Assembly (NCBI GenBank): GCA_041738755.1
Contig: JBGSPE010000003.1
Coordinates: forward strand, 62,602-126,601
DNA: 64,000 bases
Source of the DNA: Minisyncoccia bacterium
GTDB lineage: Bacteria; Patescibacteriota; Minisyncoccia; Phycocordibacterales; UBA918
Reading direction: 5' to 3'
Shown: piece after piece, positions 9,920 to 55,443 of the stretch
Position numbering within the stretch: the stretch's first letter is position 1
Layout: every line of letters begins with the position of its first letter
Position numbers and translations under genes: made by a program
The notes under the pieces: model-generated
The model's database searches: none
The model's input: only the letters and a program-made list of their open reading frames with translations
Told to the model about the DNA's origin: nothing

Positions 9920-9987
9920 TACCTGTATTATACAGTTTTTACCTCATATAACAGTTAGTGGTGTTAACTAGTGTAGTTTGAAAAACA

Positions 9988-10020: not shown

Positions 10021-10040
10021 TGATTTAAAGAAATGAGAGA

Positions 10041-31170: not shown

Positions 31171-31190
31171 ATAATGACTGGGAAATATAA

Positions 31191-35934: not shown

Positions 35935-35942
35935 TCACTCTA

Positions 35943-37750: not shown

Positions 37751-37772
37751 AATCTGTGACCTTCAGGGTACC

Positions 37773-38486
37773 TTATATATTAAAGAGAGACAAGGTCGCT
37801 GTTGCGGTGTAGGTTTGAGCTGTTAGGGCTGGTGTTGCCGCATTAGGAACATGCACTCGAAATTGCAAGGTAGTTGTAGCTCCTGTTGGGGCAGCTGAAC
37901 CCCGGTTTACAATTTCAAATGGCGTTGTACTTGGTGCTTTCCAGCAGTGCTCTCCTGTGTCAGTACCAGCTGGTACATTACAGGCATTTGAACCGTTATG
38001 TAAGAAGGCATCAGCAGTATCAGGAGTCGAAGAAGAGAAGACTGAGTACGCAAATTGGGCAGATCCAGTTGTTGTAAAGTTATATGAAGGAAAGCCACCT
38101 ACGTCCCCAGCATAGTCAACGATTGATTCACTGTCATCAATATCTCCAATCATAGCTTGCGGGGTGCCATTATCGAAGAAATCAATCTCAACCCGATAGC
38201 CAGCCGCATTGTTTGAAAGGACAGAGAATCTCGTTGTACCAGTCGCATTTCCTCCCGTGAGACCATTGATACTACCGGCCATAGTGACATTCACTGGATC
38301 CACCAAGAAAGAACTCTCAGCAATAATAGTCTGTCGAATCCGAAAATCAGGCGTGGTATCAACCTGTCCCCGGCTGATTTGTGGCTCAAACGTAAAGTAA
38401 CTGGCAAACAAGACAGTCATGAGCGCAACGGTTATAACTAATGATTGCTTACTAATGAGCAAGAGGTTTTTAAGTGGGACGTTCAT
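37773..38486 (-). CDS. Small secreted beta-rich protein, paralog B
   Basis: Signal/TM '[16 protein letters not shown]'; '[19 protein letters not shown]...[34 protein letters not shown]', same Cys-x12-13-CW and C-terminal pattern as paralog A. Confidence 0.6.
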
Positions 38487-41500: not shown

Positions 41501-44500
41501 CAACAAACTGCCGTTACCTACTAAATCACCAGCTACTGAGAGTGATGTAGTACTTATAAGGGTAGTGTCAGGGGCAATAGTAAGATCGCTCGTTGAAGCC
41601 ACACCTATAGTAGCAATCCCGCCCTGTTCGTACATAACCCGCTGTGTACCGGCAATGGCAACAGCGACTGACGTTCCTGCTCCAGAGGAAACTGCTTCTA
41701 GTTGTACTCCCGTACCCGCAACTGTACTGGTTGCCCAAGAAATACCATCGAGAGATGTCATAACCTGAGCGTTATTCGAAACATCAACACCAACCGCCGT
41801 AAAATAGCCCTGCTCATATATAACGTCTTTCCATTGACCAACCGGAGCAGTCTGAGTTGTCCAGATGATGCCGTCAGGCGAGGTCATGACGTAGTCATCA
41901 CTACCACCACCCACAGCCACAAAGGTACCGTTACCGTAAGTAACACCTTGCCAGTTATCAGTGTCTCCGTCGGTTGCTTGGGCCGTCCAAGTAATACCAT
42001 CGGGAGAGGTCATAACAGCGTCTCCAAATTCGCCATTACCTACAGCCACGAAGGTGTCATTACCATATGCAGCATCACTCCAGTAATCATTGTTCCCCGC
42101 TGCGGTCGTAGTCGCCCAGCTGAGACCATTGGTTGAGTACATCACCACATCATCAGCAGCAACATTAAAACTAGACGGTGTGCCGACAGCCACATAGGTT
42201 CCATTCCCATACGTGACACCGAACCAGTTATCATTATCTCCCGCAGCACTTCCAGAAGTCCAATTGATACCGTCCGGTGAGACAGCTACCGATGGTGTAA
42301 GACCAACATACGGGATACCAACCGAAACAAACTGCCCACCTGCGTAAATGATATCAAGACCTAGATAAAGTCCAAATGGAGAGTCAGTCGTAGTGGTTGC
42401 CCATGATATACCATCCATTGAGTACATAATCTCATCATTAGAACTTAATCCACCAATTCCAACTGCGACAAAGGTATTGGTACCGTACGCGACACCGTAC
42501 CACTCTTCATTATTACCAGCTGCACTTTGGGTTACCCATCCATCTGTCCCAGTGGGGTCAATCACCACATCACCAAGTGTGTTACTGCCGCTAAAGTTAC
42601 CTGATAATTGCGGTAATGAACCTCCTACAATCAATGTCGTTTCAGAAAAATCTATTGAACCATTTTGTGTAAAGTCACCGTTTAACGTTAAGTTTGCGGT
42701 TGGAGCGAAGATAGTAGACGACGCCACAAGCAACGCCGCTGAAGTGGCGGTTGAACCAATTGATGTAGTTGCACCATCTACATCAAAGAGAACGTCTCCG
42801 TCATCATCAAAATCATAAAATGCTGCTGTACCAAGATCTATCTCCCCGGTCGTACTTGAGTGTTGCAATCGTACAGTATCCGACCACAAATCAATATCCA
42901 AAATATCAGTCTCACCATTAAGGTACGTCAGTGTAGTGGCACTGGTCGTAGCAGACTCATCGACAAAAAGAGTGAGCGGGGTGGTTTCATTAAAAGCGGG
43001 TGTACCCTCTGCGTACATCACCCGGTCGCCAGAAGAACTAACGGCTACAAATTGACCGTTGCCGTACGTGACACTCTGCCAGGAATCATTATTTCCTACC
43101 GCCGTACGAACAGTCCACGTCACACCATCCGGTGAAGTCATGACTCGGTCAAGACCAGTACCTACCGCGACAAAGAGCCCATTGCTGTACGTGACACTTT
43201 GCCACGAGTCATTATTTCCGGCGGCAGTCGAGGTGGCCCAGGTGATACCGTCAGTTGAGACCATGACGCGGTCACTCCCCGAATTTCCAACCGCTACAAA
43301 CAGACCGTTGCCGTACGTGACACTCTGCCAATTATCATTGTTATCAGCTGCTGATTGAACCGTCCAATTGATACCATTGGAGGAAGTCATGACGCGGTCG
43401 CCAGAGTCACCCACGGCTACAAAAAGACCATTAGCGTAGGTGACACTACGCCAGGAATCATTATCTCCAGCAGCTGTTGAGGTCGCCCAATTGATACCAT
43501 CGGAGGAAGTCATGACTACATCTTCCGTTCCGAGGTTTCGAACACCGACTGCCACAAAGAGACCATTTCCATAGGTCACACTTTGCCAACGATCATTATT
43601 TCCAGCCGCTGGACGAGCGGTCCAAGCAACACCATCAGATGAAGTCATGACACAATCATCGGCACTTCCATCCAAAACTGTACAACCTCCCACAGCCACA
43701 AAGAGACCATTGGCATAGGTGACACTACGCCACGTATCATTGTCCCCAGCGGCAGTTGAGGTGGCCCAATTAAAACCATCTACTGAAGTCATGACTCGGT
43801 CTGCTGTGATACCAACCGCTACATATAATCCATTATTATAAGTAACACTATTCCACATATCATTATCTCCAGCGGCGGTTGTTGTAGACCAACCACTTAG
43901 TCCTACTTCCTGATACTCTGGTAACGTAAGACTGAAGTTTCCAAAAGCATCAGTTGTGGTACTAAATGTATTCAACACATCGATACTACTATCTGCGTAC
44001 ATTACTCGGTCCCCTGAGTTACCGACCGCTACAAAACGATTGTTTGCAAAGGTAACAGCCAGCCAACCGTCATTATCACCGGCGGCAGGGCGGGCGGTCC
44101 AATTGATGCCGTCAGGAGAGGTCATGACGGTATCAGGACCTTCACCGACTGCTACAAATAATCCGTTGCCATACGTAACGTCATACCATAAATCGTCATC
44201 GCCAGCGGCAGACCGAACAGTCCAAGTAATACCGTCAAGAGAGGTCATGACTCCGTCAGTACTCGGACCAGTACCGACAGTCACAAACAGTCCGTTGCCA
44301 TAGGTGACACTTTGCCAAGTATCATTATTACCGGCAGCAGACTGCACGGTCCAGGTAATGCCGTTTGAGGAAGTAATGACACGGTCACCGAAACTACCAA
44401 CCGCTACAAACAGTCCGTTGCCGTAGGTGACACTTTGCCAGAAATCGTCATTTCCAGCCGCAGACTGCACGGTCCAGGTAATCCCATCAGATGAGGTCAT

Positions 44501-45739
44501 GACGCATTCTACATCTGAAAGGCAAGAACCGACTGCTACAAACAGTCCGTTGCCGTACGTAACATCCCACCACGAATCATTATTACCGGCGGCTGAGCTT
44601 GTTGCCCAGGTAATCCCATCAGATGAGGTCATGACGCGGTCGCCAAAAACACCAACCGCTACAAACAGTCCGTTGCCGTAGGTGACACCAAGCCACTGAT
44701 CATCATTACCAGCGGCTGAGCTTGTTGCCCAGGTAATCCCATCAGATGAGGTCATGACTTGGTCAAGCCCTGTAGCGACGGCAACGTAGGTGCCATTACC
44801 ATAAGTGATACTTTGCCAAAAGTCATCATTTCCAGCCGCGGTTGTAGTTGCCCAGTCACTCAATATTGTCTCAGTACCTAATGGTGTTACAACAGAGGCT
44901 GTAACAGTACTTGTTGCAGTAATTGGGGTACTACCATCACTTTCGTATAACGTTCCTGAAAGAGTAATTGGCCCACCACTCGGTTCACCCATAACCTCAG
45001 CTAACGCCACTGCTACCATCGCCGCATCATCGGTCGCTTGTGTCCAACCAGCAGTTACGTCGGTACTAGCAACGGTGTCGTAGGTATAAAAGCCCGCTAA
45101 TTGTGCTCCAAAATCTTCCTCATCGCGACTCGTCCAACCAGAGAGCGGTGTTATGCCCGTGACTGCTGCGAGCCCAGAAAAGAGCCCGAGCGAAACATGC
45201 GCAGTCCGACCAGACAAAGGTACGGTGACGCTAGGATTAACAGCGTTAGCAACAATTGAATTATCAAAAGCCACTACTTCAGTATCAGCGCCAGCTGTAA
45301 ACGTATAAGCCACTGCATGCTTCCCTCCTCCGCCGGTTTCATTGACCGATACTGTTTGGGCACCAGTTGGAATACTGGACGTACCAACGTACGCATACAC
45401 ACAGGCTGGTTCCGTCACCGTGTCACATGCTCTAGCAACCCTCGTAAGAGTCAAACTCCCATACGTCACACTATCAATCCGATCAGCTGCAGAGGTATTT
45501 TGCACAATATATACCAACACTCCACGCGGTGTTCCAACCGGCGTATGAGTCCAACTAAAATCTACTGTTGATCCCGCAGCGACATTGCCATCTTCAGAAA
45601 ACGCATCGAACGCTACCGCGGCCTCTGCGGTGACAGCTGAAACAAGGAAGCTTCCAAAGGCAAACAAAACCCCAACCGTCATACATATATATGTACGGTA
45701 CGTTGCTTTGAAAGCTGATTGTATATGAAGTATTTTCAT
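38588..45739 (-). CDS. Giant secreted protein (2383 aa) built of ~30+ tandem Asp-box-like (S-x-D-G-x-T-W) propeller-blade repeats with a Gly-rich C-terminal domain
   Basis: Signal peptide 'MTVGVLFAFGSFLVSAVTAEA'. ~45-aa unit 'vMTSsDGiTWatssAAGNnDsWqsVTYGNGLFVAVG' repeated throughout. C-terminus poly-Gly 'GGGGGRASDIGGE...' and 'GGGSGGGADI'. Confidence 0.7.
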   Translation of the reverse strand: MKILHIQSAFKATYRTYICMTVGVLFAFGSFLVSAVTAEAAVAFDAFSEDGNVAAGSTVDFSWTHTPVGTPRGVLVYIVQNTSAADRIDSVTYGSLTLTRVARACDTVTEPACVYAYVGTSSIPTGAQTVSVNETGGGGKHAVAYTFTAGADTEVVAFDNSIVANAVNPSVTVPLSGRTAHVSLGLFSGLAAVTGITPLSGWTSRDEEDFGAQLAGFYTYDTVASTDVTAGWTQATDDAAMVAVALAEVMGEPSGGPITLSGTLYESDGSTPITATSTVTASVVTPLGTETILSDWATTTAAGNDDFWQSITYGNGTYVAVATGLDQVMTSSDGITWATSSAAGNDDQWLGVTYGNGLFVAVGVFGDRVMTSSDGITWATSSAAGNNDSWWDVTYGNGLFVAVGSCLSDVECVMTSSDGITWTVQSAAGNDDFWQSVTYGNGLFVAVGSFGDRVITSSNGITWTVQSAAGNNDTWQSVTYGNGLFVTVGTGPSTDGVMTSLDGITWTVRSAAGDDDLWYDVTYGNGLFVAVGEGPDTVMTSPDGINWTARPAAGDNDGWLAVTFANNRFVAVGNSGDRVMYADSSIDVLNTFSTTTDAFGNFSLTLPEYQEVGLSGWSTTTAAGDNDMWNSVTYNNGLYVAVGITADRVMTSVDGFNWATSTAAGDNDTWRSVTYANGLFVAVGGCTVLDGSADDCVMTSSDGVAWTARPAAGNNDRWQSVTYGNGLFVAVGVRNLGTEDVVMTSSDGINWATSTAAGDNDSWRSVTYANGLFVAVGDSGDRVMTSSNGINWTVQSAADNNDNWQSVTYGNGLFVAVGNSGSDRVMVSTDGITWATSTAAGNNDSWQSVTYSNGLFVAVGTGLDRVMTSPDGVTWTVRTAVGNNDSWQSVTYGNGQFVAVSSSGDRVMYAEGTPAFNETTPLTLFVDESATTSATTLTYLNGETDILDIDLWSDTVRLQHSSTTGEIDLGTAAFYDFDDDGDVLFDVDGATTSIGSTATSAALLVASSTIFAPTANLTLNGDFTQNGSIDFSETTLIVGGSLPQLSGNFSGSNTLGDVVIDPTGTDGWVTQSAAGNNEEWYGVAYGTNTFVAVGIGGLSSNDEIMYSMDGISWATTTTDSPFGLYLGLDIIYAGGQFVSVGIPYVGLTPSVAVSPDGINWTSGSAAGDNDNWFGVTYGNGTYVAVGTPSSFNVAADDVVMYSTNGLSWATTTAAGNNDYWSDAAYGNDTFVAVGNGEFGDAVMTSPDGITWTAQATDGDTDNWQGVTYGNGTFVAVGGGSDDYVMTSPDGIIWTTQTAPVGQWKDVIYEQGYFTAVGVDVSNNAQVMTSLDGISWATSTVAGTGVQLEAVSSGAGTSVAVAIAGTQRVMYEQGGIATIGVASTSDLTIAPDTTLISTTSLSVAGDLVGNGSLLNDGTLFLSGSNKTVSTAVATPELGDVAVTGTIDFITNVSVTDLTISSSGTLDPHTELTVTGDFTQNGDIDFSNTTLYLSGSDSDLTGDFSGTNRLYDVVVDGVFQASASWNSISAVNNDDAWLDIAYGNGTFVAVGDATGVGDAVMTSPDGETWTAQSAAGNNDAWAGVTYGNGQFVAVGNGPGTDRVMTSSDGITWIVQTIASVPLQSVTYGDGLFVAVSCGLTGEVCDTTVSTENRIYTSSDGVTWTDRSAAGNDDSWTGVTYGDGLFVAVAATGTTRIMTSPDGINWTAQSALGNDDDWQSVTYGNGQFVAVGALGPDETGDVIMYSNNGTDWSLGVTPGFAGFLYDVEYGNNEFIAVGSTIDFDLLAFVPTAITSSDGITWGPQSLTSSAGDQFATGVTFGEGLYVVVGFRDDGGVNSLINNRQVIGQTANIVTASTSDVQISQNGSLKVTDELSILGDFTNAGSFEPATSTVVFGGVAAQVATGTLEFYNLTVTNESQNGSTTQSVTYGAPLTVTNTYTMLPGTSAAFLAGATSTIQNIDLAGTAGNEVYLRSTASGTAWGLDVSGSQINVEFVDVKDSFASTSISATSSVDGGNNTNWFFVNEAISGSSTIANHDQGQVSNAFNFQNKTDEELFAFKLIPESGTATLTSLTFDLSGVTNIDSADFTNIRLVRDLMPSGEFNGGLAGDEVIAGTGVMIIDAESETGTIVFNEDFVISTSSAQNYLVVADWNAPPRDSAVTINLYPGGVVAEDENGVQDIFGSVSPRQHSRFESRGGGGGRASDIGGEAPVGDGIVVGGGAGPGEQIGNDPNFRRPTGGSGWRDIANSYDGVDETRAIANNTNPSVWQNHSFPINTGNTIQGIEIKLEIRSSNPTAILSAQLSWDGGSSWTDTKELTNVASSDVVLTAGGPSDLWGRTPWSVAEFSNTNFRVRLTADQTSVFSLDEIQVRVYNQASGGGSGGGADI

Positions 45740-45742
45740 AGG

Positions 45743-48700
45743 TTAGCTGGTTGGTTCACTTGGAGTTGGTAATGGTTCTGGTTCGGGAGTTAGCTCTGGT
45801 TCTGGCTCGGGTTCTGGTTCTGGTAGCGGCTCAGGGGTTGGCTCTGGTTCTGGAACTACCGGTTCCACTGGTGGTTCAACGCTTGGCTCTGGTGGTCCGC
45901 CTTCCCCGCTTTGACCACCTCCTCCACTCGTTTCATCAACTGATTCCTCATCTGTTGGTTCAGCTGGCGGGTTTGGTGGCTCTGATTCAGGAGTTGGTTC
46001 TGGTTGTACGGGTGCTGGAGTGCCGTCAATATTATTGTTATCAAGCAACTGCCGTAAATCATTGGCGTCGATACACACTCCATCCACACACAATTCTTCT
46101 TTTACCTCGATTCGGTTCGTCTTAATGCCAGCCACTTGTAGGATTCCGTCAACGAATCCTTGCGCCAGAGATACCAATCTATCAAACAGTGTCTCATCAA
46201 TATTTTCTCCTACCGTTTGAACTGATGATGTACTCATAAGCGAAGCTAGGCTAGCCGCTTGCGTTTCACCGATGAAGCGGTAGCTCAAATCAACAAACAT
46301 CACGATTTGTCCTACTTGTACTGATTGACCATTAACATCCCGAGTCTCACTTGGCGTACCAGCCAACCCTGCGAGCTGCTCTGCCACACTCTGATCTGCC
46401 AAGACTTGATTAGCACTATTAATCTGCTCAATCATCGATTCGCCGTTCAAGGGCACACACGGTGAACCATTATCAGCTCCACCACCGTAGTAACATCCGT
46501 CATGGACCCGTGGATCATTTGGGTCAGTGATTGGTTGGTATACCGGGTCAACCAAATCATCACCAAACTGATTGATGAAGGTTCGAGAATATTTTCGTGA
46601 TGAATCAAAGTCTTCAAGCGCGATACCAACAACCGTACCTGTTGCAGTCGCCTTCATTGCTACCCCCGGAAGTGAAGATAATGTCAGTTGATCACCTTTT
46701 TTAATTGGACCATTTTCAGTTGAAAGTTGAATTGGGACACGACCTGAGAGCGCAATTGGATACGCCGTCTCACCAGCTCTCGTTGACTCATCATCTGCTC
46801 CCATTAATACACCTGGCTTAGTTGAGACCACACCGATAATCGGGTCAGTTCCTTCATCTGCCCGAACCACTGAAAGCTCACCATCGAGTGAAACAATTTC
46901 TCCGGTCTCAAGTGACTGGCTTGAGAAATACATTTCAGCGAGGTCAGAGTTACCGGTGAATTGTGAGACTGAAGCAATTCGTCCTTGCACTGACGCAATA
47001 CAAGCACCGTCATTGTCGACACAGATACCACCTCGTCCGATTTGGAGTCCAGCCATATTGGTTCCGTCTCCAATCGTCGTCGTACCGTACGCAGTTACAT
47101 TAAAGACTGATGTATTGGTGTTACGGAAATCAACAAAGCGTGAGGTGGTTGATGAGAATGACCCGCCACTGTTACCAAAGTTAAGCTCAAGTCCTGTTCC
47201 AGTAAAGGTCGAGGTATCTTGGAAGAGGCTCATGAGTGTTGCGCTTGTAATACTTGAAGAGAACCCGCGAATGGCATTGCCCTGCGTAGTGCCTCGCGTC
47301 TGGAAGAAGCCTCCAGCTGGAGCTAGTACGCCACCAGCATCCCCTTCAGTGATACCCCGAACTCCAAAGGTTCGTCCCGTTCCAGAAATAGCCGTATTCT
47401 CTCCTTGTGTATTGCTACCCCGGTTGGTTTGAATCTCAAGACCTCGAACCGTATTTCCAAAAATGGTATCGTCTTCAACCCGAAAAATACTGCCGATGAT
47501 AGTTGTGGTAGCGGTGTTATTTGCATCAAGGTTAAAGAAATTACCGTATTGCAATGCCCCATTAGAACTATTGGTAGTCGTAATCCACTGCTGAAGCGCT
47601 GCGGTACCAGTACCAGTGAGACTATCTACCTGTAATGCCAACCGAGAACTTGGTGATGTCGTCCCAAGGCCGATGTTGCCGGTAGTGAGGTTACCGTATA
47701 GCGCATTCCCAAGACTCAAGAAGTTACTCGTACCACTCGTCGGTAACTCTATGTTGTCACCAATTAAAATATTGTTACTGCCCGTACTCGTGTTACTACC
47801 GGTATTATCACCAAGGAAGATATTGTTGTTGCCGGTTACACCCGCACCAGCAAAATTACCGATGAAAATATTTTCCGTCCCCTCACTATCTGTACCAGCT
47901 GATTGACCAATGGCGATAGTGTAGTCTGCTAAGGTATCACGGAGCGCCGATGTTCCAAGAGCGATATTGAAATCCCCAGTGGAAGCAAACACCCCAGCAT
48001 CAGTACCTATATAGGTATTATTACTTTCTGTTGTGAGGCTAAAACCAGCACTTTTACCGAACAATACATTACCATCTCCACTAGTCACAGACCCTCCTGC
48101 GCTAATACCAAAGAAGGCATTGTTGCTACCAGTCACACCACTATGCATGTCATTAAATTCATTCAGTCCAAACGCTACGTTGTAATTAACATCATTAGCT
48201 GACAGTAACCCATCTCCGTTGTATCGCACAATTGAACCAGTCGTGAGATTAATATCCCCTGCAACGGTAAGTCGACTACTTAGAGTAGTCGTCCCGATTC
48301 CGATATTTCCACTAGAATCAATCAACATCCGAGATGTTCCACCGACTGAAAACCCTAACGTATTAGTACCACCAAACATTCCAGTATCGGTATCATTTTC
48401 AAATGAAAATGCCGGCGCATTAGCGAGACTGGTACTTAAACGTGCGAGACCAACACTACTGATATAAGCAGCTCCGCCAAAGTTAAATTCTCCTGTAAAA
48501 TCTCCAGTGACACCGCTCAAAGTACCAGTAACATTTGCGTTACCTGCGACAGTGAGGAGTTGAGATGGGGTAGTGGTACCAATCCCCACATTACCACTCG
48601 CATCAATCCGAAGTCGTTCGGTGCCAGCAGTGGAGAAACCAAGAATATCAGTACCACCTCTGAACATACCGGTATTAGTATCACCACTAAAAGAAAAACT

Positions 48701-51700
48701 TGGTGAACTAGTTGACCCATCCATCATTCGAATACCAAATAAGTCAGTGATGTTATAGTTCAAACTTGTGAGATTTATTTGATCGGACGTAACGTCAAAT
48801 TCTAAACCTTGAATATAAACACCCGTAATGCCTCCTACACCGACCCTTAAATCATTACCATTATCAGCAATCACTAAATCTGCAGTGGAACCAGAATTAA
48901 TTTTAAATCCATTATTTCCAAAACCAATTGAGCCTACGTCTCCTCCGTCACCATCATTAAATTGAATCAAGGTACTTGGTCCAGCGGTAGCAATATTATC
49001 GAGTCCGCCTTGGATCAAAAGACCTGAGCGATTGGCATTATTACCATCATTCAAAATAGCTGCCGCAAAGTCTGCCGCATCTGCAAAGACATTGAGGCGT
49101 GAGGTACCACCGGTACCACCAATTGAGAGATTGTCGGTGAGTGAGGTGAGGTAGGTGTTAGCACCTCCGTCAGTGAAGAGTGATGCTCCACCTGAGATTC
49201 CAAGTGTCGAAGTCGCCACCCAGTTAAACCCTGAGCCAGTGCTCTGGAGGACCATACCGTTTGAGCCGGTACTTGAGGCGTTGTCGACGAGGGCTCCGGT
49301 GATACGAACGCCGCCAGCGACTGTGAGACGTTGTGAGGGAGTGGTGGTTCCGATGCCCACGAGGCCACTGGCGTTAATACGGAGGCGTTCGGTAGCAGCG
49401 GTACTAAAGCCAAGTTGGTTGTTGGCTGCCGAAAACATTCCATTATCAGCGTCCAAATCGACACCGAAATCAACGTTAGTTGGACTACCTGCACTATCAG
49501 TAGTGTATCTAAAAGCTTCGATGATTCCAGAGGTATTATTATAATACAGACTACCATCACCAAAGTTAACACCCGATGAATCAATGACTAACATTTCAGT
49601 GCCTCCAGCTCGTACTGAAATTACATTTGAAGACTCTGCAGTAATTCCCGTATCAGCATCCCCTACAAAGCTAAGTCCGCCGGTACCGAGAGCCCCTTGA
49701 GCCAAGAAAAGTGTGTCCGTAAAGAGACCGCCGCCAGCAACGGTGAGAGCTTCACTTGGTGATGTGGTACCGATACCGATATTCCCGCTTGCATCAATGC
49801 GGAGACGTTCGGTACCGGCAGTTGCAAAACCGAGAATATCAGTAGAGGTACTAAACATACCGGTATCAGTATCTCCGCTAAATGAATACACAGGGGTAAC
49901 TGCACCACCTAGCTTACCAGGCGTAATTTTAAAACTTCCATCGATAAATGATCCTGGTAGATCGAAGCGAAGATCAGCTCCCCCATACACTTCAAAGTCT
50001 CCACCTTGAACATACAGATTCGTTATGTCAGCGCCGGCAGTTGAAATGCCACCGCCACTTAAAAACTGAGCAGCAATTGCTCCATCAACTGTCGCGACGA
50101 GAGCGCCAGAAGTGCGATAAAACCCAGTATCAGTATCAGCTGCAAAGGTAATAGACGGAGCACTAACAGTTCCTGTTGCTGCCCGAAACGCCCCTGTCAT
50201 CGCGACTGAACCATTAGCCAGGAAGTCTCCAGACCCGAAGCCAAGCGTACTGGTTGCTACCCAATTAAATCCAGAACCAGTGCTTTGGAGGACCATACCG
50301 TTTGAACCAGTACTTGAGGCGTTATCAACCAAGGCTCCCGTGATGCGGACACCGCCAGCGACGGTGAGACGTTGAGATGGGGTGGTGGTGCCAATCCCGA
50401 CAAAGCCATTACTATTTAATATAGTCAGGTCAGGTGCAATCAAATTTCCCACAGCTGAAAAACTCAAATTAGCATTTAACGATTGCCCAATCGAAGCACT
50501 ATCTGGAGTACCATCAGCGTCACTGATAAAGAGCAATTGCGCTACGTTCCCAACCCCAACATTATCATTTGTCGATAAAATAAAGTCGACCTGTCCAGTA
50601 TTTTTATGAATGTGCAATAGACCTTCAGGAGTAGTAGTACCGATGCCGACATTCCCACTCGCACCAATCGTCAATCGTTCAGTACCATTTGTACTAAATC
50701 CAATGAGTCCATAATCAGAACTGAACATACCACTACCACCAAAGTTAAACTGTGGTGCCGATTCGGTACTTGTTCCAAATGACTTAAACGCCACTGAATT
50801 CACACCTCCAGGATCAATAAAGGTTGAAACGTCAAAAAATCCAACTTCAAATTCGTTTAAAAATATTGACGGCACCCCGTTAGCGACCAGTCTTATTTCG
50901 CCCGCTAATTCACTCTCAATTCCAGTATCCGTATCTCCAGCAAACGAAATTCCTCCGGTACCGAGAGCCCCTTGAGCCAAGAAGAGAGTATCTGTCATGT
51001 CGACAGAGCCATCCGCGAAAAAGTCTCCGCCGCCTCCGCCAGAAATACCCAATGTCGACGTCGCCACCCAATTGAAGCCGGTGCCGGTACTTTGGAGGAC
51101 CTGTCCTGTAGTACCACTGGCATTATTGCTATCAAAGAGGGCTCCGGTGATACGGACGTTACCGGCAACTGTGAGACGCTGACTTGGAGTACTTGTCCCA
51201 ATTCCCACGTTGCCACCGCCCGAAATAGTCAAAATATTTGTATTTCCTCCAGCACCAATATTAAGATTACGACTTGATTGTGTTGAGTAGATAAATGCAT
51301 CTAAATTCCCTGATGTTTCAACTCCCATAAACAGATCGGGTCCGGCAACATTACCATGATCAAACCTGATTTGATTGTTTGTAACATTAATTTTCGCACG
51401 ATCTTGATTCCCCAGGTCAGTCTGTACTGTAAACACCTCATTCCCCGTATCATCAAATACCGCCAATGCTCGAGCTTTAGAATCCTGAATGGTTAAAGTT
51501 CCAGGAGGTGATGTGGTGCCAATTCCAACATTTCCACTACTCAACAGAGATAAGGCTGGCGTTGAAGAAAGTCCACTTGCCGAAGCGTTGGTACCAAGGT
51601 AAATATTTTGTGCTCCCAAAAATAATTCGTTTCCAGTGTAAATTGCCGCGTCGTTCTCAACCGAAAAACCATTCATGACGTTGGTAAGCGTTGACAATGA

Positions 51701-53674
51701 TGAGTACTCACGAATGAAAAAATCTCCCGAACCACCAGCGCCCGCTGCCAGACGCAGTTCTGCGGCAGCAACAGTTCCATTTGTAGTATTTTGAATGCTC
51801 ACCCCTCGAGCAGTATTTCCTGTACCGACCACATGCAGCTGGGAAGTAGGACTTGAAGTCCCAATTCCCACCTCACCCGAGAGTCGCTCAATCGCAAAAA
51901 ATGGTGAATCATCAAAACTTGAGCCGGTATCAATTGAAAATGTATCTGTAGCCGCTCGGTAGCCCTGGATAATTTGAGGATTACCATTTGATAAAAAGCG
52001 CATAGCAGTGTCACCACTAGAAATATTATCGATATCCACTCCAGTAAATGAACCATTGGTTGAAATGAAGGTAGCTACGACAGCCTGATTATCAATAACT
52101 GTGAATTTTCTTTGTGGTGTACTTGTTCCAACCCCAACTCCCCCACCAGCGGTAACAAACACGCCCTCATCACCTCCATCACCAGATAACCAGTTTGAAC
52201 CAAGTGCAATGTTGGCAACTGTACCACTCATAGTAAGGGTTGATGAGAGTGTCGCAGCAGCCGCATTCACAGTACCAGTGAAGGTTGGTGAGTCAGAGAA
52301 GACCGAGAAGCCTGTGCCAGTTTCGTCAGAGAGTAACGCCGCAAGTTGAGCTGAGTTGGTAAATGAAGATGAGAAACCAAGTGTTGAAGTGGCTACCCAG
52401 TTAAACCCAGTACCAGTACTTTGAAGAACTGAGCCATTTGAGCCAGTTGAAGATGCGTTATCAACCAATGCTCCAGTGATGCGTACACCGCCAGCGATAG
52501 TGAGGCGTTGTGATGGAGTGGTGGTGCCGATACCAACAAAACCACTATTCACCACTCGCATCGCTTCAGTCGCTCCGTTGTTCCCCACTCCAAAAATAAT
52601 GGCATCGGTGGTTCCAACTCCGGTAGTTGAGCGTAGAGTCAGGGTTGAACCAACTGCCGTACCACCATTTACGAGCGGTGCAATAATCGAGGTAGTAAAG
52701 GTCGGAGTGGTTGAAAAAACAACGTTCCCAGTTCCAGTTTCATTAGTGATTGAACTAAGGAGTTGGGCTGAGGTAATACTGCTGGCTGCAGTACCGTACA
52801 GTGTTCCACTTGTCGGTAAGGTAAGCGTTGTAGCTGCAGTAGTGGTAAACGTTAAGTTATGGGCACCCGTTCGAGTAAAGGTATTAGCTCCAATAGTAAA
52901 GGCGCCAGGCAATACTGGAGTACCGGTGAATGTTGGTGACACAGAAAAAACAACATTCCCTGTGCCTGTCTCATCACCCAAGATGGCAGCGAGTTTGGCA
53001 GAGGTATCAATACTTGTCGTACCAAAGAGTCCCAAGGTTGAAGTTGATACCGTCAATACTCCACCCGTATTTGTAAGTCCTGTACCTGTTAAATCAGTGA
53101 AATTCTCACCGTTGATAACGAGGTTGGTCGTGGTAGCAGTCTGTGACGTGAGATTTGTAATGCTTGAAGAGGCGCTTGAGATTAAACCGCCAGTGAAGGT
53201 GAGAAGACCTGAAGCGGTATCTGCTTGATCTGAACGGAGGAAAGACGTAGATGCGACACCACCAACTCTTTGGGCTTCAAAGGCGGCTGGTACGGTTCCA
53301 AATGGTTTCCGAGGGACCATCTCGCCATCACCTTCAACATTGATAGAGAGAAAGAGCGGTTGATTGAAATCAACCGAAGAGAGTGGCGTGGTTGAACCAA
53401 GCATGATTGAAAAGAGACCGTTCACGACAGACACTTCATTGGCACCAGTTAGTGTCTCAGTCCAGAGAAGTGTACCGCCCGTCACTGCCGTATAGAGACG
53501 GAACTCCATGGCGTATGGGCCGTCGGCGACAGCGAGTCCGGTGGGGTCAGTGAGCTTACCTTGGTAGTTGATGGTGGGGGTGGGTTGGGCCAAGGTATTC
53601 GAAATAAAAACAACATTGCTCACGAGCAACGTGGCAAAGACAAATCCTGTGATGAGGCGCAGTGACTTCATCAT
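45743..53674 (-). CDS. Giant secreted fibre-like protein (2643 aa) with repeated 'GNVGIGTT(T/S)P...LTVAGGVRITGAL' modules, a possible auto-chaperone-like region, and a Pro/Glu-rich C-terminus
   Basis: Signal peptide 'LITGFVFATLLVSNVVFISNTLA'. >4 near-identical ~50-aa modules 'GIGTTTPSQRLTVAGGVRITGALVDNASSTGSNG(M/S)VLQSTG(S/T)GFNWVATSTLG'. C-terminal 'NSDLAEMYFSS' region. Final ~90 aa 'PEPEPEPEPELTPEPEPLPTP'. Confidence 0.7.
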   Translation of the reverse strand: MMKSLRLITGFVFATLLVSNVVFISNTLAQPTPTINYQGKLTDPTGLAVADGPYAMEFRLYTAVTGGTLLWTETLTGANEVSVVNGLFSIMLGSTTPLSSVDFNQPLFLSINVEGDGEMVPRKPFGTVPAAFEAQRVGGVASTSFLRSDQADTASGLLTFTGGLISSASSSITNLTSQTATTTNLVINGENFTDLTGTGLTNTGGVLTVSTSTLGLFGTTSIDTSAKLAAILGDETGTGNVVFSVSPTFTGTPVLPGAFTIGANTFTRTGAHNLTFTTTAATTLTLPTSGTLYGTAASSITSAQLLSSITNETGTGNVVFSTTPTFTTSIIAPLVNGGTAVGSTLTLRSTTGVGTTDAIIFGVGNNGATEAMRVVNSGFVGIGTTTPSQRLTIAGGVRITGALVDNASSTGSNGSVLQSTGTGFNWVATSTLGFSSSFTNSAQLAALLSDETGTGFSVFSDSPTFTGTVNAAAATLSSTLTMSGTVANIALGSNWLSGDGGDEGVFVTAGGGVGVGTSTPQRKFTVIDNQAVVATFISTNGSFTGVDIDNISSGDTAMRFLSNGNPQIIQGYRAATDTFSIDTGSSFDDSPFFAIERLSGEVGIGTSSPTSQLHVVGTGNTARGVSIQNTTNGTVAAAELRLAAGAGGSGDFFIREYSSLSTLTNVMNGFSVENDAAIYTGNELFLGAQNIYLGTNASASGLSSTPALSLLSSGNVGIGTTSPPGTLTIQDSKARALAVFDDTGNEVFTVQTDLGNQDRAKINVTNNQIRFDHGNVAGPDLFMGVETSGNLDAFIYSTQSSRNLNIGAGGNTNILTISGGGNVGIGTSTPSQRLTVAGNVRITGALFDSNNASGTTGQVLQSTGTGFNWVATSTLGISGGGGGDFFADGSVDMTDTLFLAQGALGTGGISFAGDTDTGIESELAGEIRLVANGVPSIFLNEFEVGFFDVSTFIDPGGVNSVAFKSFGTSTESAPQFNFGGSGMFSSDYGLIGFSTNGTERLTIGASGNVGIGTTTPEGLLHIHKNTGQVDFILSTNDNVGVGNVAQLLFISDADGTPDSASIGQSLNANLSFSAVGNLIAPDLTILNSNGFVGIGTTTPSQRLTVAGGVRITGALVDNASSTGSNGMVLQSTGSGFNWVATSTLGFGSGDFLANGSVAMTGAFRAATGTVSAPSITFAADTDTGFYRTSGALVATVDGAIAAQFLSGGGISTAGADITNLYVQGGDFEVYGGADLRFDLPGSFIDGSFKITPGKLGGAVTPVYSFSGDTDTGMFSTSTDILGFATAGTERLRIDASGNIGIGTTSPSEALTVAGGGLFTDTLFLAQGALGTGGLSFVGDADTGITAESSNVISVRAGGTEMLVIDSSGVNFGDGSLYYNNTSGIIEAFRYTTDSAGSPTNVDFGVDLDADNGMFSAANNQLGFSTAATERLRINASGLVGIGTTTPSQRLTVAGGVRITGALVDNASSTGSNGMVLQSTGSGFNWVATSTLGISGGASLFTDGGANTYLTSLTDNLSIGGTGGTSRLNVFADAADFAAAILNDGNNANRSGLLIQGGLDNIATAGPSTLIQFNDGDGGDVGSIGFGNNGFKINSGSTADLVIADNGNDLRVGVGGITGVYIQGLEFDVTSDQINLTSLNYNITDLFGIRMMDGSTSSPSFSFSGDTNTGMFRGGTDILGFSTAGTERLRIDASGNVGIGTTTPSQLLTVAGNANVTGTLSGVTGDFTGEFNFGGAAYISSVGLARLSTSLANAPAFSFENDTDTGMFGGTNTLGFSVGGTSRMLIDSSGNIGIGTTTLSSRLTVAGDINLTTGSIVRYNGDGLLSANDVNYNVAFGLNEFNDMHSGVTGSNNAFFGISAGGSVTSGDGNVLFGKSAGFSLTTESNNTYIGTDAGVFASTGDFNIALGTSALRDTLADYTIAIGQSAGTDSEGTENIFIGNFAGAGVTGNNNIFLGDNTGSNTSTGSNNILIGDNIELPTSGTSNFLSLGNALYGNLTTGNIGLGTTSPSSRLALQVDSLTGTGTAALQQWITTTNSSNGALQYGNFFNLDANNTATTTIIGSIFRVEDDTIFGNTVRGLEIQTNRGSNTQGENTAISGTGRTFGVRGITEGDAGGVLAPAGGFFQTRGTTQGNAIRGFSSSITSATLMSLFQDTSTFTGTGLELNFGNSGGSFSSTTSRFVDFRNTNTSVFNVTAYGTTTIGDGTNMAGLQIGRGGICVDNDGACIASVQGRIASVSQFTGNSDLAEMYFSSQSLETGEIVSLDGELSVVRADEGTDPIIGVVSTKPGVLMGADDESTRAGETAYPIALSGRVPIQLSTENGPIKKGDQLTLSSLPGVAMKATATGTVVGIALEDFDSSRKYSRTFINQFGDDLVDPVYQPITDPNDPRVHDGCYYGGGADNGSPCVPLNGESMIEQINSANQVLADQSVAEQLAGLAGTPSETRDVNGQSVQVGQIVMFVDLSYRFIGETQAASLASLMSTSSVQTVGENIDETLFDRLVSLAQGFVDGILQVAGIKTNRIEVKEELCVDGVCIDANDLRQLLDNNNIDGTPAPVQPEPTPESEPPNPPAEPTDEESVDETSGGGGQSGEGGPPEPSVEPPVEPVVPEPEPTPEPLPEPEPEPEPELTPEPEPLPTPSEPTS

Positions 53675-54429
53675 GGCGATTGTTGATTAAGTGGAACAGT
53701 GATGACAGGAATTTCAGCGCCGATGATTTCGCTCTGCCCATTCACTTGACTCACGAATTTCTGCCCTGAAGCATCGGTGCGAATGACAATCCGATCAGAA
53801 AATAAATCTTGTAACTCTAGTAATTCACCTTCACTCAGCTGTGATGGGAGTAGCAAAATTCCTTCCGTACTCGACGCAAAGCTTCGTACCTGATCAGGTA
53901 CTGTTTTGAAATCTGCGGTATAGACGTCTGCTTCTGGTGTTGATGCAAGAGTGGTCACCACCGGAGGTGCAGGCGTCACATCAGTGGCCAAGAGTGAAAG
54001 TGACGAGACTTTGGTACTGGCTACCTGGACCTCAGGATTGGTGAGTTGTGAGAAGGTATTCTCAAACAAGTACCCGCTAAAGAGTCCAAGGAAGACTGCC
54101 GCTGCCACGACCACTTTGGTGCGATTGGCTTTGACTCGGTGCGCCTTTGCTCGAGCTACCTTTCTTTGCGTCACCTCTTCTCGCAATGAGCGTTCCTGTT
54201 TTCTTTCTTCACTCAGTTTTTGTTTTCGGATGGATTGCTCAATCTCCATGATGGATTCGTAGTGCTTGAGTGACTCAACGTCGATGTACCACTGGCGGCC
54301 AATGTGGCTGGCGACGATTTTCCCCTCCCGAGCAAGTCTGGTGATGTAGTCACTTGAGTAACTGACGAGCGCGGTGGCTGACTTTATGCTGTGGAGTTTT
54401 TTGCCGTCGATTTCAAGAACCTTTGCCAT
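53671..54429 (-). CDS. Membrane-tethered HTH protein (excisionase/MerR-type HTH_17-like N-terminus, single TM, ~130-aa extracytoplasmic C-terminus), paralog 1
   Basis: 'HSIKSATALVSYSSDYITRLAREGKIVASHIGRQWYIDVESL', then a Lys/Arg/Glu-rich helix, TM 'VVVAAAVFLGLFSGYLF'. Its stop overlaps the giant gene start (ATGA at 53671-53674). Confidence 0.6.
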   Translation of the reverse strand: MAKVLEIDGKKLHSIKSATALVSYSSDYITRLAREGKIVASHIGRQWYIDVESLKHYESIMEIEQSIRKQKLSEERKQERSLREEVTQRKVARAKAHRVKANRTKVVVAAAVFLGLFSGYLFENTFSQLTNPEVQVASTKVSSLSLLATDVTPAPPVVTTLASTPEADVYTADFKTVPDQVRSFASSTEGILLLPSQLSEGELLELQDLFSDRIVIRTDASGQKFVSQVNGQSEIIGAEIPVITVPLNQQSP

Positions 54430-54494: not shown

Positions 54495-55427
54495 CTACGG
54501 GAGAAGGAGTAAAATATTTGCGAGTGCAACGTTCAAGCTTGAGTCATACTCACTACCTGAAGCAGAGATTTCTAAGTTGGTTGCCAAAAGTCCAAAACTT
54601 ACAAGGAAGGCACCGACGACCGCTAAGGCTGGTACTAAGAGACTGGTTTTTGTCGCTGGTTGTTGTGTCCGTGTTTTTGAAACAGTTGCTTTTGGAATAT
54701 TACCAGGGGTAAAAGATGTCGGAACGGTAGATTGTGCGTGAGTGCTTAGTGATTGTACAGACGGCGTTACTGAATGTCTTTGTACCTGGGGTTGAATTGG
54801 GCGCTTAACGGCTACTCCCGGACGTCGTGGGCGTATCATCACGGCTTTTTTAGCCACTGCAGGGGCAATGACTGGTATTTCCTCAGGGATTACAGGCGTT
54901 TCTTCTTCATCTGAGATATCAGCAATTACCAAAGTTCCTGACAACGCTACCTCAGGCAACGGTTCAGGCTTGAAATTAGTAGGTTTTTTATTCTCAGTAC
55001 TGATTTTAACCTTTTCTGAATCAGCGATATTGACGTTGAGCCGAGTTGGCTTGGAGTGCTTCTTCACACTCGGCATGAGTGACTGATCGTCTTCTTCGTA
55101 GGAAACCTCAGTCCGTGAATCTAACCCGTTTTGACCGAGAACGATTCTGGCTGTTTTATTTTTCAGATATGGTTCTACGGCTACCCGAGATACGTAGTTT
55201 TTACTTACTACTTTCTCTGTTATCTCGGATTCGTTAGTAGTCTTGTACTTACCATCTCGGTGCTCAATGAGTGAATCTTCGTGTATATACCATGCTCGAC
55301 CGACTAATCTCGCGTCGACTTTTTTAGCTCGAGCGAGCTGCCCGAGATAATCAGGAGTGTAGCGATATTTTAAAGCCAAGCTGGTAGCTTTAATATATTC
55401 TCGGCCATGAAAAGTAACTGCGTCCAT
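54495..55427 (-). CDS. Membrane-tethered HTH protein, paralog 2 (same N-terminal domain, long Pro-rich linker, TM near the C-terminus)
   Basis: 'EYIKATSLALKYRYTPDYLGQLARAKKVDARLVGRAWYIHEDSL'; TM 'LLVPALAVVGAFLVSFGLLATNL'. ATG at 55427 preferred over the TTG at 55433. Confidence 0.6.
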   Translation of the reverse strand: MDAVTFHGREYIKATSLALKYRYTPDYLGQLARAKKVDARLVGRAWYIHEDSLIEHRDGKYKTTNESEITEKVVSKNYVSRVAVEPYLKNKTARIVLGQNGLDSRTEVSYEEDDQSLMPSVKKHSKPTRLNVNIADSEKVKISTENKKPTNFKPEPLPEVALSGTLVIADISDEEETPVIPEEIPVIAPAVAKKAVMIRPRRPGVAVKRPIQPQVQRHSVTPSVQSLSTHAQSTVPTSFTPGNIPKATVSKTRTQQPATKTSLLVPALAVVGAFLVSFGLLATNLEISASGSEYDSSLNVALANILLLLP

Positions 55428-55443
55428 ACTCAAGTAGTGTATC

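What the first reader, a model, noticed from the sequence alone, without database searches (positions are those of the whole stretch)
45743..53674. 2643-aa fibre-like protein with tail-fibre-type 'GNVGIGTT(S/T)P' repeats, a possible auto-chaperone-like 'SDLAEMY' region and a PE-rich C-terminus
'GIGTTTPSQRLTVAGGVRITGALVDNASST' modules recur at least four times. Such repeats are characteristic of proteins annotated as tail-fibre-domain proteins in other genomes. The C-terminal 'QFTGNSDLAEMYFSS' followed by a globular segment resembles the self-cleaving intramolecular-chaperone domains of phage fibres and spikes (assignment tentative). The last ~90 aa are (P-E-P)n with no TM or sorting motif. This could be a domesticated phage-fibre-like adhesin, or a tailocin or contact-dependent structure.
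Basis: partly seen in the sequence, partly recalled or inferred. Interest (0 to 1): 0.55.

Follow-up and report, generated by a model that had tools for sequence, protein, structure and literature searches.

The report
Phage-like surface fibre of an ultrasmall bacterium
This chromosomal gene of an ultrasmall (Patescibacteria/CPR) bacterium encodes a 2643-residue secreted fibre made of phage-tail-fibre-type modules, ending in a phage phi29-type self-cleaving folding domain; it is a good candidate for how these bacteria attach to other cells.

Summary
ORF 45743-53674 (-) encodes 2643 aa with a signal peptide and 11 'G-x-V-G-I-G-T' motifs. A 60-aa module occurs four times. 'SDLAEMY' lies at aa 2243, and the last 99 aa are rich in Pro and Glu.

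- The repeats match the 'capping loop' motif of Bdellovibrio MAT trimeric fibres, and the protein hits solved MAT structures and phage tail-fibre PHROGs.
- The C-terminal domain is a Peptidase_G2-type intramolecular chaperone, not S74. S2243|D2244-L-A-E aligns with the phi29 gp12 cleavage site S691|D692-F-A-E. The AlphaFold model becomes confident exactly at D2244, and its best PDB matches are phi29 gp12.

It is not a prophage or tailocin gene. The window holds housekeeping and surface-protein genes only. The order gatB, two HTH/TM genes, fibre, giant repeat protein, p237 recurs in at least 20 Patescibacteria species.

At least 109 relatives keep 'SDLAE.YF' 340-490 aa from the C-terminus. In 61 full-length relatives the N-terminal ~200 aa and C-terminal ~600 aa are conserved and the middle is mosaic.

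Trimerisation, self-cleavage, surface display and adhesion are inferred, not shown.

Verdict: a new variant of a known kind, of moderate interest.

The parts
45743..53674 (-). Whole fibre gene, 2643 aa plus stop. Its first ATG overlaps the stop codon of the upstream gene (ATGATGA). Only 3 nt separate its stop from the ATG of the downstream giant gene.
53588..53674 (-). Sec-type signal peptide, aa 1-29 (MMKSLRL-ITGFVFATLLVSNVVFI-SNTLA|QP). It is the only hydrophobic segment of the protein. The cleavage after TLA is inferred from the sequence.
   Evidence: sequence
53270..53587 (-). Conserved N-terminal 'INYQG' domain, aa ~30-135, predicted to be an Ig-like beta-sandwich. Putative cell-proximal anchor. 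Widespread in Patescibacteria; not found in phage collections.
48185..53227 (-). Stalk, aa ~150-1830, with 11 capping-loop motifs (G-x-V-G-I-G-T-x-x-P). These are beta-helix fibre modules homologous to Bdellovibrio MAT fibres and phage tail fibres. This is the part that varies between orthologues.
52373..52547 (-). Long module, copy 1 (DNA repeat family D1; aa ~376-434).
51044..51218 (-). Long module, copy 2, diverged (D1; aa ~819-877).
50237..50411 (-). Long module, copy 3 (D1; aa ~1088-1146).
49196..49370 (-). Long module, copy 4 (D1; aa ~1435-1493).
47615..48184 (-). Short-period Asn/Gly-rich repeats, aa ~1831-2020 ('NN.F.G..AG'). Internally repeated: aa 1845-1916 resemble aa 1944-2013. Aligned in 39-44% of relatives. 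Fold not determined.
46946..47614 (-). Conserved segment before the cleavage site, aa ~2021-2243. It would be the distal end of the mature fibre. Aligned in 95-97% of full-length relatives. Contains the Cys pair C2218/C2225.
46934..46948 (-). Predicted autoproteolysis motif S2243|D2244-L-A-E2247. It aligns with S691|D692-F-A-E695 of phi29 gp12 and is invariant in the family.
46580..46945 (-). Peptidase_G2-type intramolecular-chaperone core, aa 2244-~2365. This is the part shared with phage proteins.
46043..46579 (-). Patescibacteria-specific extension of the chaperone domain, aa ~2366-2544: helices, a long beta-hairpin, and Cys pairs C2394/C2406 and C2529/C2534. It has no phage counterpart.
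45746..46042 (-). Acidic Pro/Glu-rich disordered tail, aa 2545-2643. The composition, not the sequence, is conserved in the family.
53671..54429 (-). Upstream partner p252: N-terminal HTH_17-like region plus one TM segment. Conserved next to the fibre in at least 20 species.
54495..55433 (-). Upstream partner p312, with one C-terminal TM segment. Conserved between gatB and p252.
38588..45739 (-). Downstream partner: a 2383-aa secreted protein with 'YGNG.FVAVG...MTS.DGI.W' repeats (EPTP-like). Found downstream of the fibre in about 30 related loci.

Best explanation
The gene encodes a secreted, cell-surface, homotrimeric fibre of a Patescibacteria (Paceibacteria/Parcubacteria-type) bacterium. 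It is built like the 'mosaic adhesive trimer' (MAT) fibres of Bdellovibrio and like phage tail fibres.

Proposed mechanism; only the sequence and fold similarities are shown, every step below is inferred:
1. The N-terminal signal peptide sends the unfolded chain through Sec.
2. Outside the cell, the C-terminal Peptidase_G2-type intramolecular chaperone (aa 2244-~2544) brings three chains together. It sets the register of the conserved C-terminal segment and then of the beta-helical stalk, whose 11 capping loops mark the beta-helix segments.
3. After trimerisation the chain cuts itself between S2243 and D2244, with D2244 and E2247 as the catalytic pair, as in phi29 gp12. This releases a 400-residue chaperone with its acidic tail.
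4. The mature fibre (about 2214 residues per chain) is held at the cell by the conserved Ig-like N-terminal domain and projects outward.
5. It mediates contact with a host cell or another surface. The mosaic central ~1800 residues, which differ between species, carry the specificity.

The gene lies in a conserved, probably co-transcribed locus with two membrane HTH-like proteins and a giant repeat protein.
For: **Fibre nature**
- PHROG tail-fibre families hit with E from 5e-33 to 2e-20.
- phmmer hits solved Bdellovibrio MAT fibre structures: 8OND E 2.8e-7, 8OJN, 8OL4.
- The repeated motif equals the MAT capping-loop consensus. MATs are trimeric, surface-displayed fibres with a signal peptide and a conserved N-terminal domain.

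**Chaperone**
- Pfam Peptidase_G2 scores above its gathering cut-off.
- The family profile hits the phi29 gp12 autochaperone 3GQH from its first residue, D692.
- hhalign E 3.7e-5 pairs SDLAE with SDFAE. Mature gp12* ends at residue 691.
- The AF2 model has mean pLDDT 82 and turns confident at D2244.
- Foldseek's top PDB hits are 3SUC and 3GQH, E 4e-5 and 3.7e-4. In BFVD, 30 viral proteins match at E<=1e-3, among them ones named preneck appendage protein and tail fibre protein.
- 'SDLAE.YF' is invariant in 109 relatives and always lies 340-490 aa from the C-terminus.

**Cellular, not viral**
- There is a signal peptide and no LPXTG or C-terminal TM segment.
- The 64 kb hold only housekeeping and surface-protein genes.
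- The gene order around the fibre is conserved in at least 20 species-level genomes. All 48 genome loci found are Patescibacteria.
- The N-domain is absent from phage collections.

**Extracytoplasmic folding**: all six Cys lie in three close pairs in the last 430 aa.

**Variable middle, conserved ends**.
Against: - No experiment or multimer prediction was possible, so trimerisation, cleavage, surface retention and adhesion are all inferred.
- The Pfam hit is borderline and covers only positions 30-99 of a 228-position model.
- The structural match has a high rmsd (7-11 Å) and TM 0.23-0.50.
- From my memory of the 2009 phi29 gp12 structure paper, which I could not retrieve, release of the phi29 chaperone needs ATP. 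ATP is not available outside the cell.
- The segment just before the cleavage site is conserved rather than hypervariable, unlike phage and MAT receptor-binding tips.
- Homology of the N-domain to the MAT N-domain could not be tested because the afdb50 library was unavailable. It has no specific PDB match.
- A gene fixed at a core locus could equally be a general envelope component.
Confidence: 0.6

Rival explanations
1. It is a surface fibre of the same architecture and maturation, but its role is structural or enzymatic rather than host adhesion. Examples would be an S-layer-like coat, a spacer, or a carrier of glycan-degrading activity.
For: - The gene sits at a fixed core-genome locus next to gatB in many species, as expected of a housekeeping envelope component.
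- The distal pre-cleavage segment is conserved.
- Orthologues at the same locus carry beta-helix/NosD, LVIVD and lactonase-type beta-propeller domains.
- From memory, phi29 gp12, the closest chaperone relative, is an enzyme that degrades teichoic acid.
Against: - This protein has no recognisable enzymatic domain at E<0.1.
- Its closest solved relatives are adhesive MAT fibres.
- A mosaic middle that differs between species fits diversifying recognition better than a uniform coat.
Confidence: 0.2
2. The C-terminal G2-like domain is not cleaved. It stays as a permanent distal cap or binding domain, and the acidic tail acts as a functional extension.
For: - The domain (~300 aa) is about twice the size of phi29's 163 aa. 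It has a lineage-specific extension and a tail whose composition is conserved, which suggests roles beyond a disposable chaperone.
- The ATP-dependent release described for phi29 (from memory) cannot work outside the cell.
- The fold also resembles phage capsid decoration proteins, which are permanent structural parts.
Against: - S-D-x-A-E is strictly conserved and aligned with the phi29 cleavage site. This is hard to explain without catalysis.
- The domain always lies at the C-terminal end.
- The model's confidence boundary falls exactly at D2244.
Confidence: 0.12
3. It is a phage, prophage or tailocin tail fibre that happens to lie in a bacterial contig.
For: - It hits tail-fibre PHROGs and a phage-type chaperone.
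- IMG/VR contigs and jumbo phages carry relatives of the chaperone core.
Against: - It has a Sec signal peptide.
- No capsid, portal, terminase, sheath, tube or baseplate gene is among the ORFs scanned in the 64 kb.
- The same gene order with gatB, obg and secA recurs in at least 20 species.
- GC content is uniform across the window.
- The N-domain is absent from 50,697 phage genomes and from IMG/VR.
Confidence: 0.03

Closest known systems
Bdellovibrio bacteriovorus MAT (mosaic adhesive trimer) fibres, e.g. Bd2133, Bd3182, Bd2439 (Caulton et al. 2024, PMC10769870)
   Same: - A chromosomal gene of a bacterium that lives on other bacteria.
- A signal peptide followed by a conserved beta-rich N-terminal domain.
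- A long stalk of beta-helix segments marked by the same 'NVGIGTTxP' capping-loop motif.
- Direct sequence hits to the solved structures 8OND, 8OJN and 8OL4.
- Mosaic evolution. Some Patescibacteria relatives end in S74 (PF13884), as 13 of the 21 MATs do.
   Different: - It is 2.5 times longer (2643 aa against ~1000).
- Its terminal chaperone is Peptidase_G2-type, which is not among the termini listed for MATs.
- Variation sits in the middle of the protein, and the distal end is conserved. In MATs the tips are swapped.
- The host is a Patescibacteria cell, not a Gram-negative predator. No Patescibacteria appear in the MAT tables.
- Homology of the N-domains was not tested.
Phage phi29 pre-neck appendage protein gp12 (MEROPS/Pfam Peptidase_G2; PDB 3GQ7, 3GQH, 3SUC)
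   Same: - A C-terminal autochaperone that begins with D-x-A-E-Y-F straight after a Ser. S|DLAEMYF here aligns with S691|DFAEYF in gp12.
- The same fold by Foldseek.
- It follows a trimeric beta-helical passenger.
   Different: - Only the first ~120 residues of the domain are shared. The Patescibacteria domain is ~300 aa plus a 99-aa acidic tail, against 163 aa in gp12.
- This protein is exported, so it would fold without cytoplasmic ATP.
- The passenger is a fibre, not a pectate-lyase-type enzyme.
- No virion is involved.
[quoted passage not shown]
   Same: - The same logic: a C-terminal chaperone that drives trimerisation of a beta-helical stalk and then cuts itself off.
- The capping-loop motif is shared with MyRF and MATs.
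   Different: - There is no Pfam S74 hit at E<0.1.
- The motif is S-D-L-A-E-M, not S-D-x-x-x-K. It is a different catalytic family.
Trimeric autotransporter adhesins (YadA-type)
   Same: - Long, repetitive, trimeric bacterial surface fibres.
- Two relatives are labelled 'trimeric autotransporter adhesin' by JGI, and one lists PF05658 (recalled as YadA head).
   Different: - There is no C-terminal beta-barrel translocator or anchor.
- Polarity is opposite: here the N-terminus is cell-proximal and the C-terminus is removed.
- No Pfam hit to any YadA-type domain at E<0.1.

Membership tests
Peptidase_G2 (phi29 gp12-type intramolecular chaperone, PF11962) | Match to the family profile at or above the curated cut-off | tested here: met
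   25.7 bits against a gathering cut-off of 25, E 8.7e-6, aa 2227-2293. The match is borderline and covers only profile positions 30-99 of 228.
Peptidase_G2 (phi29 gp12-type intramolecular chaperone, PF11962) | Cleavage-site and catalytic motif Ser|Asp-x-x-Glu aligned with gp12 S691|D692...E695 | tested here: met
   SDLAE aligns with SDFAE by hmmsearch to 3GQH residue 1 and by hhalign. Mature gp12* ends at 691. The motif is invariant in the family. That D and E are the catalytic residues is from memory of MEROPS.
Peptidase_G2 (phi29 gp12-type intramolecular chaperone, PF11962) | Fold of the autochaperone domain | tested here: met
   Foldseek's top PDB hits are 3SUC (E 4e-5) and 3GQH (E 3.7e-4, TM 0.50 on the target). 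BFVD gives 'preneck appendage protein' hits at about 1e-10. The rmsd is high and only the N-terminal half matches.
Peptidase_G2 (phi29 gp12-type intramolecular chaperone, PF11962) | Location at the C-terminal end, after a trimeric beta-helical passenger | tested here: met
   The motif lies 340-490 aa from the C-terminus in 109 relatives. The passenger is homologous to trimeric MAT beta-helices.
Peptidase_G2 (phi29 gp12-type intramolecular chaperone, PF11962) | Autoproteolysis after trimerisation | not testable with these tools
   Needs expression with SDS-PAGE or MS, and D2244/E2247 mutants.
MAT fibres (Bdellovibrio mosaic adhesive trimers) | Signal peptide | tested here: met
   aa 1-29 have n-, h- and c-regions with TLA|Q, and form the only hydrophobic segment. 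No dedicated signal-peptide predictor was available.
MAT fibres (Bdellovibrio mosaic adhesive trimers) | Conserved ~130-aa beta-rich N-terminal domain homologous to that of the 21 MATs | tested here: inconclusive
   A conserved beta-sandwich of ~100 aa is present. No Bdellovibrio N-domain sequence or model was available to compare with: afdb50 was unavailable and the PDB has no specific match.
MAT fibres (Bdellovibrio mosaic adhesive trimers) | Beta-helical stalk with capping-loop motif | tested here: met
   11 motifs match the consensus of Supplementary Fig. 18. Sequence hits to 8OND, 8OJN and 8OL4.
MAT fibres (Bdellovibrio mosaic adhesive trimers) | Variable C-terminal tip, ending in S74 or a non-S74 adhesive fold | tested here: not met
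   The C-terminal ~600 aa are the most conserved part of the family, and the terminus is a G2-type chaperone. Variation is in the middle.
MAT fibres (Bdellovibrio mosaic adhesive trimers) | Trimeric, displayed on the cell surface, involved in prey or host handling | not testable with these tools
   No multimer prediction or experiment was possible.
Peptidase_S74 intramolecular chaperone (PF13884) | Profile match and S-D-x-x-x-K motif | tested here: not met
   No PF13884 hit at E<0.1. The motif is SDLAEM.
Phage or tailocin tail fibre | Encoded among virion or contractile-tail structural genes | tested here: not met
   The ORFs scanned across the 64 kb are housekeeping or cell-surface genes. Synteny with gatB is conserved.

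The most novel reading that the evidence does not exclude
The gatB-linked operon (two membrane HTH-like proteins, this fibre, the giant repeat protein and p237) is the core host-capture apparatus of Paceibacteria-type Patescibacteria.
- A phage-derived fibre is anchored by a lineage-specific N-domain.
- It is folded outside the cell by an enlarged, ATP-independent G2 chaperone, whose acidic tail replaces the ATP-driven release step.
- Its recombining middle region sets host range.

This would give an entry point to host attachment in the largest uncultivated part of the Patescibacteria. Only type IV pili turned up as an attachment mechanism in the literature searches, and only for Saccharibacteria.
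Probability: 0.2. Interest if true: 0.8.

Novelty: new variant of a known kind. Interest (0 to 1): 0.55.

Why it matters
Patescibacteria make up a large share of bacterial diversity. Those that have been cultivated live attached to other microbes. The attachment mechanisms that the literature searches returned were type IV pili in Saccharibacteria.

This work identifies a large, unannotated protein family. It has at least 109 members with the conserved cleavage motif, and all 48 genome loci found are Patescibacteria. It combines three parts:
- a cellular N-terminal anchor domain;
- phage and MAT-type fibre modules;
- a phi29-type self-cleaving chaperone.

The gene sits at a conserved chromosomal locus. 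This makes three questions directly testable: which surface organelle these cells use, whether a G2 chaperone can work outside the cytoplasm, and whether the mosaic middle region tracks host range.

It also extends the 'phage-fibre-like adhesin' idea from Gram-negative predators to ultrasmall episymbionts, with a different chaperone family.

Tried and rejected
- **Exact look-up of the 2643-aa product:** not on record. The 2642-aa call, P0196, is on record but carries no name or organism.
- **phmmer of the C-terminal 359 aa against PDB:** nothing. Only the family profile reached phi29 gp12.
- **NCBIfam:** no family for the fibre.
- **N-domain fold search in PDB:** only generic Ig-like hits, E>=0.01. 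The afdb50 library was unavailable, so the comparison with Bdellovibrio MAT N-domains could not be made.
- **The search for related loci with the wide alignments A2 and A3:** I rebuilt narrow alignments A4 and A5.
- **Representative-library search with A2:** the profile also took in stalk and tip columns (755 positions). The totals (27,008, 19,636 and 3,424) therefore overcount the chaperone family, and I used only the top hits.
- **Promoter and terminator scan:** at chance level.
- **Rfam:** only one tRNA, so there is no rRNA to place the organism.
- **The 2009 phi29 gp12 structure paper:** could not be retrieved. The ATP dependence of release and the catalytic roles of D and E are from memory.
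- **Prophage, tailocin, S74 and sortase-anchoring readings:** tested and rejected. A sortase gene is in the window, but the fibre has no LPXTG.
Full report
**1. Observation**

The ORF 45743-53674 on the - strand is real and encodes 2643 aa. A gene call that starts at the second Met (2642 aa) is already in public data, without a name, on a 161.8-kb NCBI contig and in a Logan assembly.

The protein is rich in Gly, Thr, Ser, Ala and Asn and has only 20 Lys.

The motif G-x-[VI]-G-[IV]-G-T occurs 11 times and nowhere else in the six-frame translation of the window.

A fourth copy, at ~806-878, is 63-78% identical. The DNA copies are only 63-79% identical, so these are old duplications maintained at the protein level.

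'SDLAEMY' starts at aa 2243. The last 99 aa contain 32 Pro and 22 Glu. The only hydrophobic segment is aa 5-30, and there is no LPXTG.

**2. The stalk**

PHROGs gives three tail-fibre families, with E from 5e-33 to 2e-20. The only solved structures hit by sequence are three Bdellovibrio bacteriovorus 'mosaic adhesive trimer' (MAT) fibres: 8OND/Bd2133 at E 2.8e-7, 8OJN and 8OL4.

The paper on those proteins describes trimeric, surface-displayed fibres. They have a signal peptide, a conserved ~130-aa beta-rich N-terminal domain, a beta-helical stalk and swappable tips. Thirteen of the 21 end in a self-cleaving S74 chaperone (PMC10769870). Its Supplementary Fig. 18 lists the 'capping loop' consensus (NVGIGTTTTTEKLN, NVGIGATSPSAKLQ and others). 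The repeats are therefore the edge loops of successive beta-helix segments of a MAT and phage-type fibre.

**3. The C-terminal domain**

- **Profile hits.** Pfam gives Peptidase_G2 ('IMC autoproteolytic cleavage domain') at aa 2227-2293, 25.7 bits against a cut-off of 25. It gives no S74 hit.
- **Relatives.** The last ~360 aa have 76 close relatives, all from Patescibacteria. In them 'GNSDLAE.YFS' is conserved.
- **Link to phi29.** A profile of these relatives hits PDB 3GQH, the phi29 gp12 C-terminal autochaperone. The alignment starts at residue 1 of that chain, pairing its 'DFAEYFES' with 'DLAEMYFSS'. The phi29 gene reads '...GGNTWS DFAEYFESLDG...', and mature gp12* ends at residue 691 (PMC6542822). 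So S2243|D2244 corresponds to S691|D692. hhalign gives E 3.7e-5.
- **Structure.** An AlphaFold2 model of aa 2200-2565 has mean pLDDT 82. Confidence rises from about 55 to above 88 exactly at D2244. Its best PDB matches are 3SUC (pre-mature gp12, E 4e-5) and 3GQH (E 3.7e-4).
- **Viral relatives.** In BFVD, 30 viral proteins match at E<=1e-3, among them 'preneck appendage protein' and 'tail fiber protein'. IMG/VR contigs and jumbo phages (PA5oct, Atu_ph07, Phosso) carry relatives at 28-43% identity. These cover only the first ~120 residues, and in nearly all IMG/VR ORFs they lie 120-146 aa from the C-terminus.

The remaining ~180 aa of the domain and the tail are specific to Patescibacteria.

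**4. Not a phage gene**

Every ORF scanned in the 64 kb is either housekeeping or a cell-surface protein.
- Housekeeping: ThrRS, GyrB, PheST, EF-Ts, S2, RF, split transketolase, Rpe, RpiB, GAPDH, GatB, Obg, SecA and MurB.
- Cell-surface: a sortase, and proteins with fn3, CARDB or DUF11 domains.

GC content is even across the window.

A scan of one genome per species found 48 loci with the chaperone cassette. All are Patescibacteria: Nomurabacteria, Paceibacteria, Kaiserbacteria, Parcubacteria, MAGs labelled Saccharibacteria, and Elulimicrobium.

In at least 20 of them the order gatB, p312, p252, fibre N-domain ... chaperone, giant repeat protein, p237 is the same as here.

The fibre's start overlaps the stop of p252 (ATGATGA), and 3 nt separate its stop from the next ATG. 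This suggests one transcript.

One complete Nomurabacteria chromosome has two copies, and only one of them is linked to gatB (L048 and L066).

**5. Family anatomy**

The full-length search returned 426 proteins at E<1e-10, mostly 1500-4500 aa. Their precomputed Pfam domains include LVIVD (PF08309), beta-helix (PF13229), NosD (PF05048), EPTP (PF03736) and S74 (PF13884); accession-to-name assignments other than EPTP are from memory.

Among the proteins fetched, 109 have 'SDLAE.YF', always 340-490 aa from the C-terminus. None has LPXTG. After the chaperone comes a tail of 39-190 aa (median 111) with about 28% Asp+Glu and almost no Lys or Arg.

Against 61 full-length relatives, aa 1-200 align in 80-85% and aa 2000-2600 in 95-97%. 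The middle aligns in only 2-44%. So the ends are conserved and the middle is mosaic.

This differs from MATs and most phage fibres, where the tip varies. From memory, it is closer to the layout of endosialidase or gp12, with an anchor, a functional middle, a conserved C-terminal stalk and a chaperone.

The N-terminal 'INYQG' domain has 119 relatives across Patescibacteria. It is predicted with pLDDT>90 as an Ig-like sandwich and has no specific PDB match. It was not found in IMG/VR or in 50,697 phage genomes.

All six Cys of the protein form three close pairs in the last 430 aa. This fits folding outside the cell.

**6. Most likely mechanism**

Only the similarities are shown; the steps are inferred.
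1. The chain is exported through Sec.
2. The G2-type chaperone brings three chains together and sets the register of the conserved C-terminal segment and the beta-helical stalk.
3. The chain cleaves itself at S2243|D2244.
4. A 400-aa chaperone-plus-tail fragment is released.
5. The mature fibre, ~2214 residues per chain, is retained through the N-domain.
6. The fibre makes contact with a host or another surface.

Scaling from Bd2133 (370 aa for about 150 Å) suggests a fibre of roughly 90 nm. This is a rough estimate.

Open problem: from memory, release of the phi29 chaperone needs ATP, which is absent outside the cell. The lineage-specific extension and the acidic tail may compensate, or the domain may stay attached.

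**7. Rivals**

- Same fibre, but with a structural or enzymatic role: 0.2.
- The chaperone-like domain is not cleaved: 0.12.
- Phage or tailocin fibre: 0.03.

**8. Novelty**

Phage-like trimeric fibres in bacteria (MATs) and G2 chaperones in phages are both known. Three things are not in the literature I could search:
- the combination of the two;
- its occurrence in Patescibacteria as a conserved core locus;
- the enlarged extracytoplasmic chaperone with an acidic tail.

The MAT paper's table of diverse MATs lists no Patescibacteria and no G2 terminus. I rate this a new variant of a known kind, interest 0.55.

Noticed in passing
window 38588-45739 (-): A 2383-aa secreted protein lies directly downstream, 3 nt after the fibre's stop. 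It has dozens of 'AAGN.D.W..VTYGNG.FVAVG....VMTS.DGI.W' repeats (Pfam EPTP, E 5e-11) and a C-terminal Gly/Ser stretch. Relatives lie downstream of the fibre in about 30 related loci. Its function is unknown.
   Followed up: partly
window 53671-54429 (-) and 54495-55433 (-): Two proteins (252 and 312 aa) each have one TM segment. p252 has a weak HTH_17 match. They always lie between gatB and the fibre in related genomes, and p252's stop overlaps the fibre's start codon. They may be membrane-bound regulators or assembly partners of the fibre.
   Followed up: partly
window 34354-38486 (-): A cluster of small secreted proteins. p237 and p255 look like paralogues. p346 has a weak WxLIP_PGBD match and a C-terminal TM segment. 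p526 has fn3 and a C-terminal TM segment. The cluster resembles the WxL-type surface-protein loci of Firmicutes. p237 is conserved downstream of the fibre locus in about 22 related genomes.
   Followed up: partly
window 2947-13872 (-): A sortase gene (13192-13872) lies next to three large surface proteins: 1025 aa with DUF11, 478 aa with a weak MG2 match, and 1793 aa with fn3 and CARDB. This may be a separate, sortase-dependent surface system. The fibre has no LPXTG.
   Followed up: no
L001 (about 7900-11800) and L002 (5687-11761): In two related metagenome contigs the orthologous fibre is split into several gene calls (for example 919 + 506 + 586 aa) or interrupted. This is probably a frameshift or an assembly problem in the repeats. 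Many database 'proteins' of this family are therefore fragments.
   Followed up: partly
L048 and L066 (both CP060229.1, Candidatus Nomurabacteria chromosome, 994,774 bp): One complete genome carries two fibre genes with the INYQG N-domain and the SDLAE cassette. Only one is at the gatB locus. The second cassette is more diverged (43% identity).
   Followed up: no
IMG/VR loci L004-L024: A class of phage ORFs of 180-2300 aa mostly ends in a ~125-aa domain that begins '[YW][AGS]DLAE.Y..D..Y.PGT'. Pfam mostly fails to recognise it: Peptidase_G2 scored below its cut-off in two of nine. It looks like a minimal version of the G2 chaperone core and seems under-annotated in phages.
   Followed up: partly
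window 30184-32087 (-): Transketolase is encoded as two separate genes, for the N-terminal and C-terminal halves, within a pentose-phosphate and GAPDH gene cluster.
   Followed up: no
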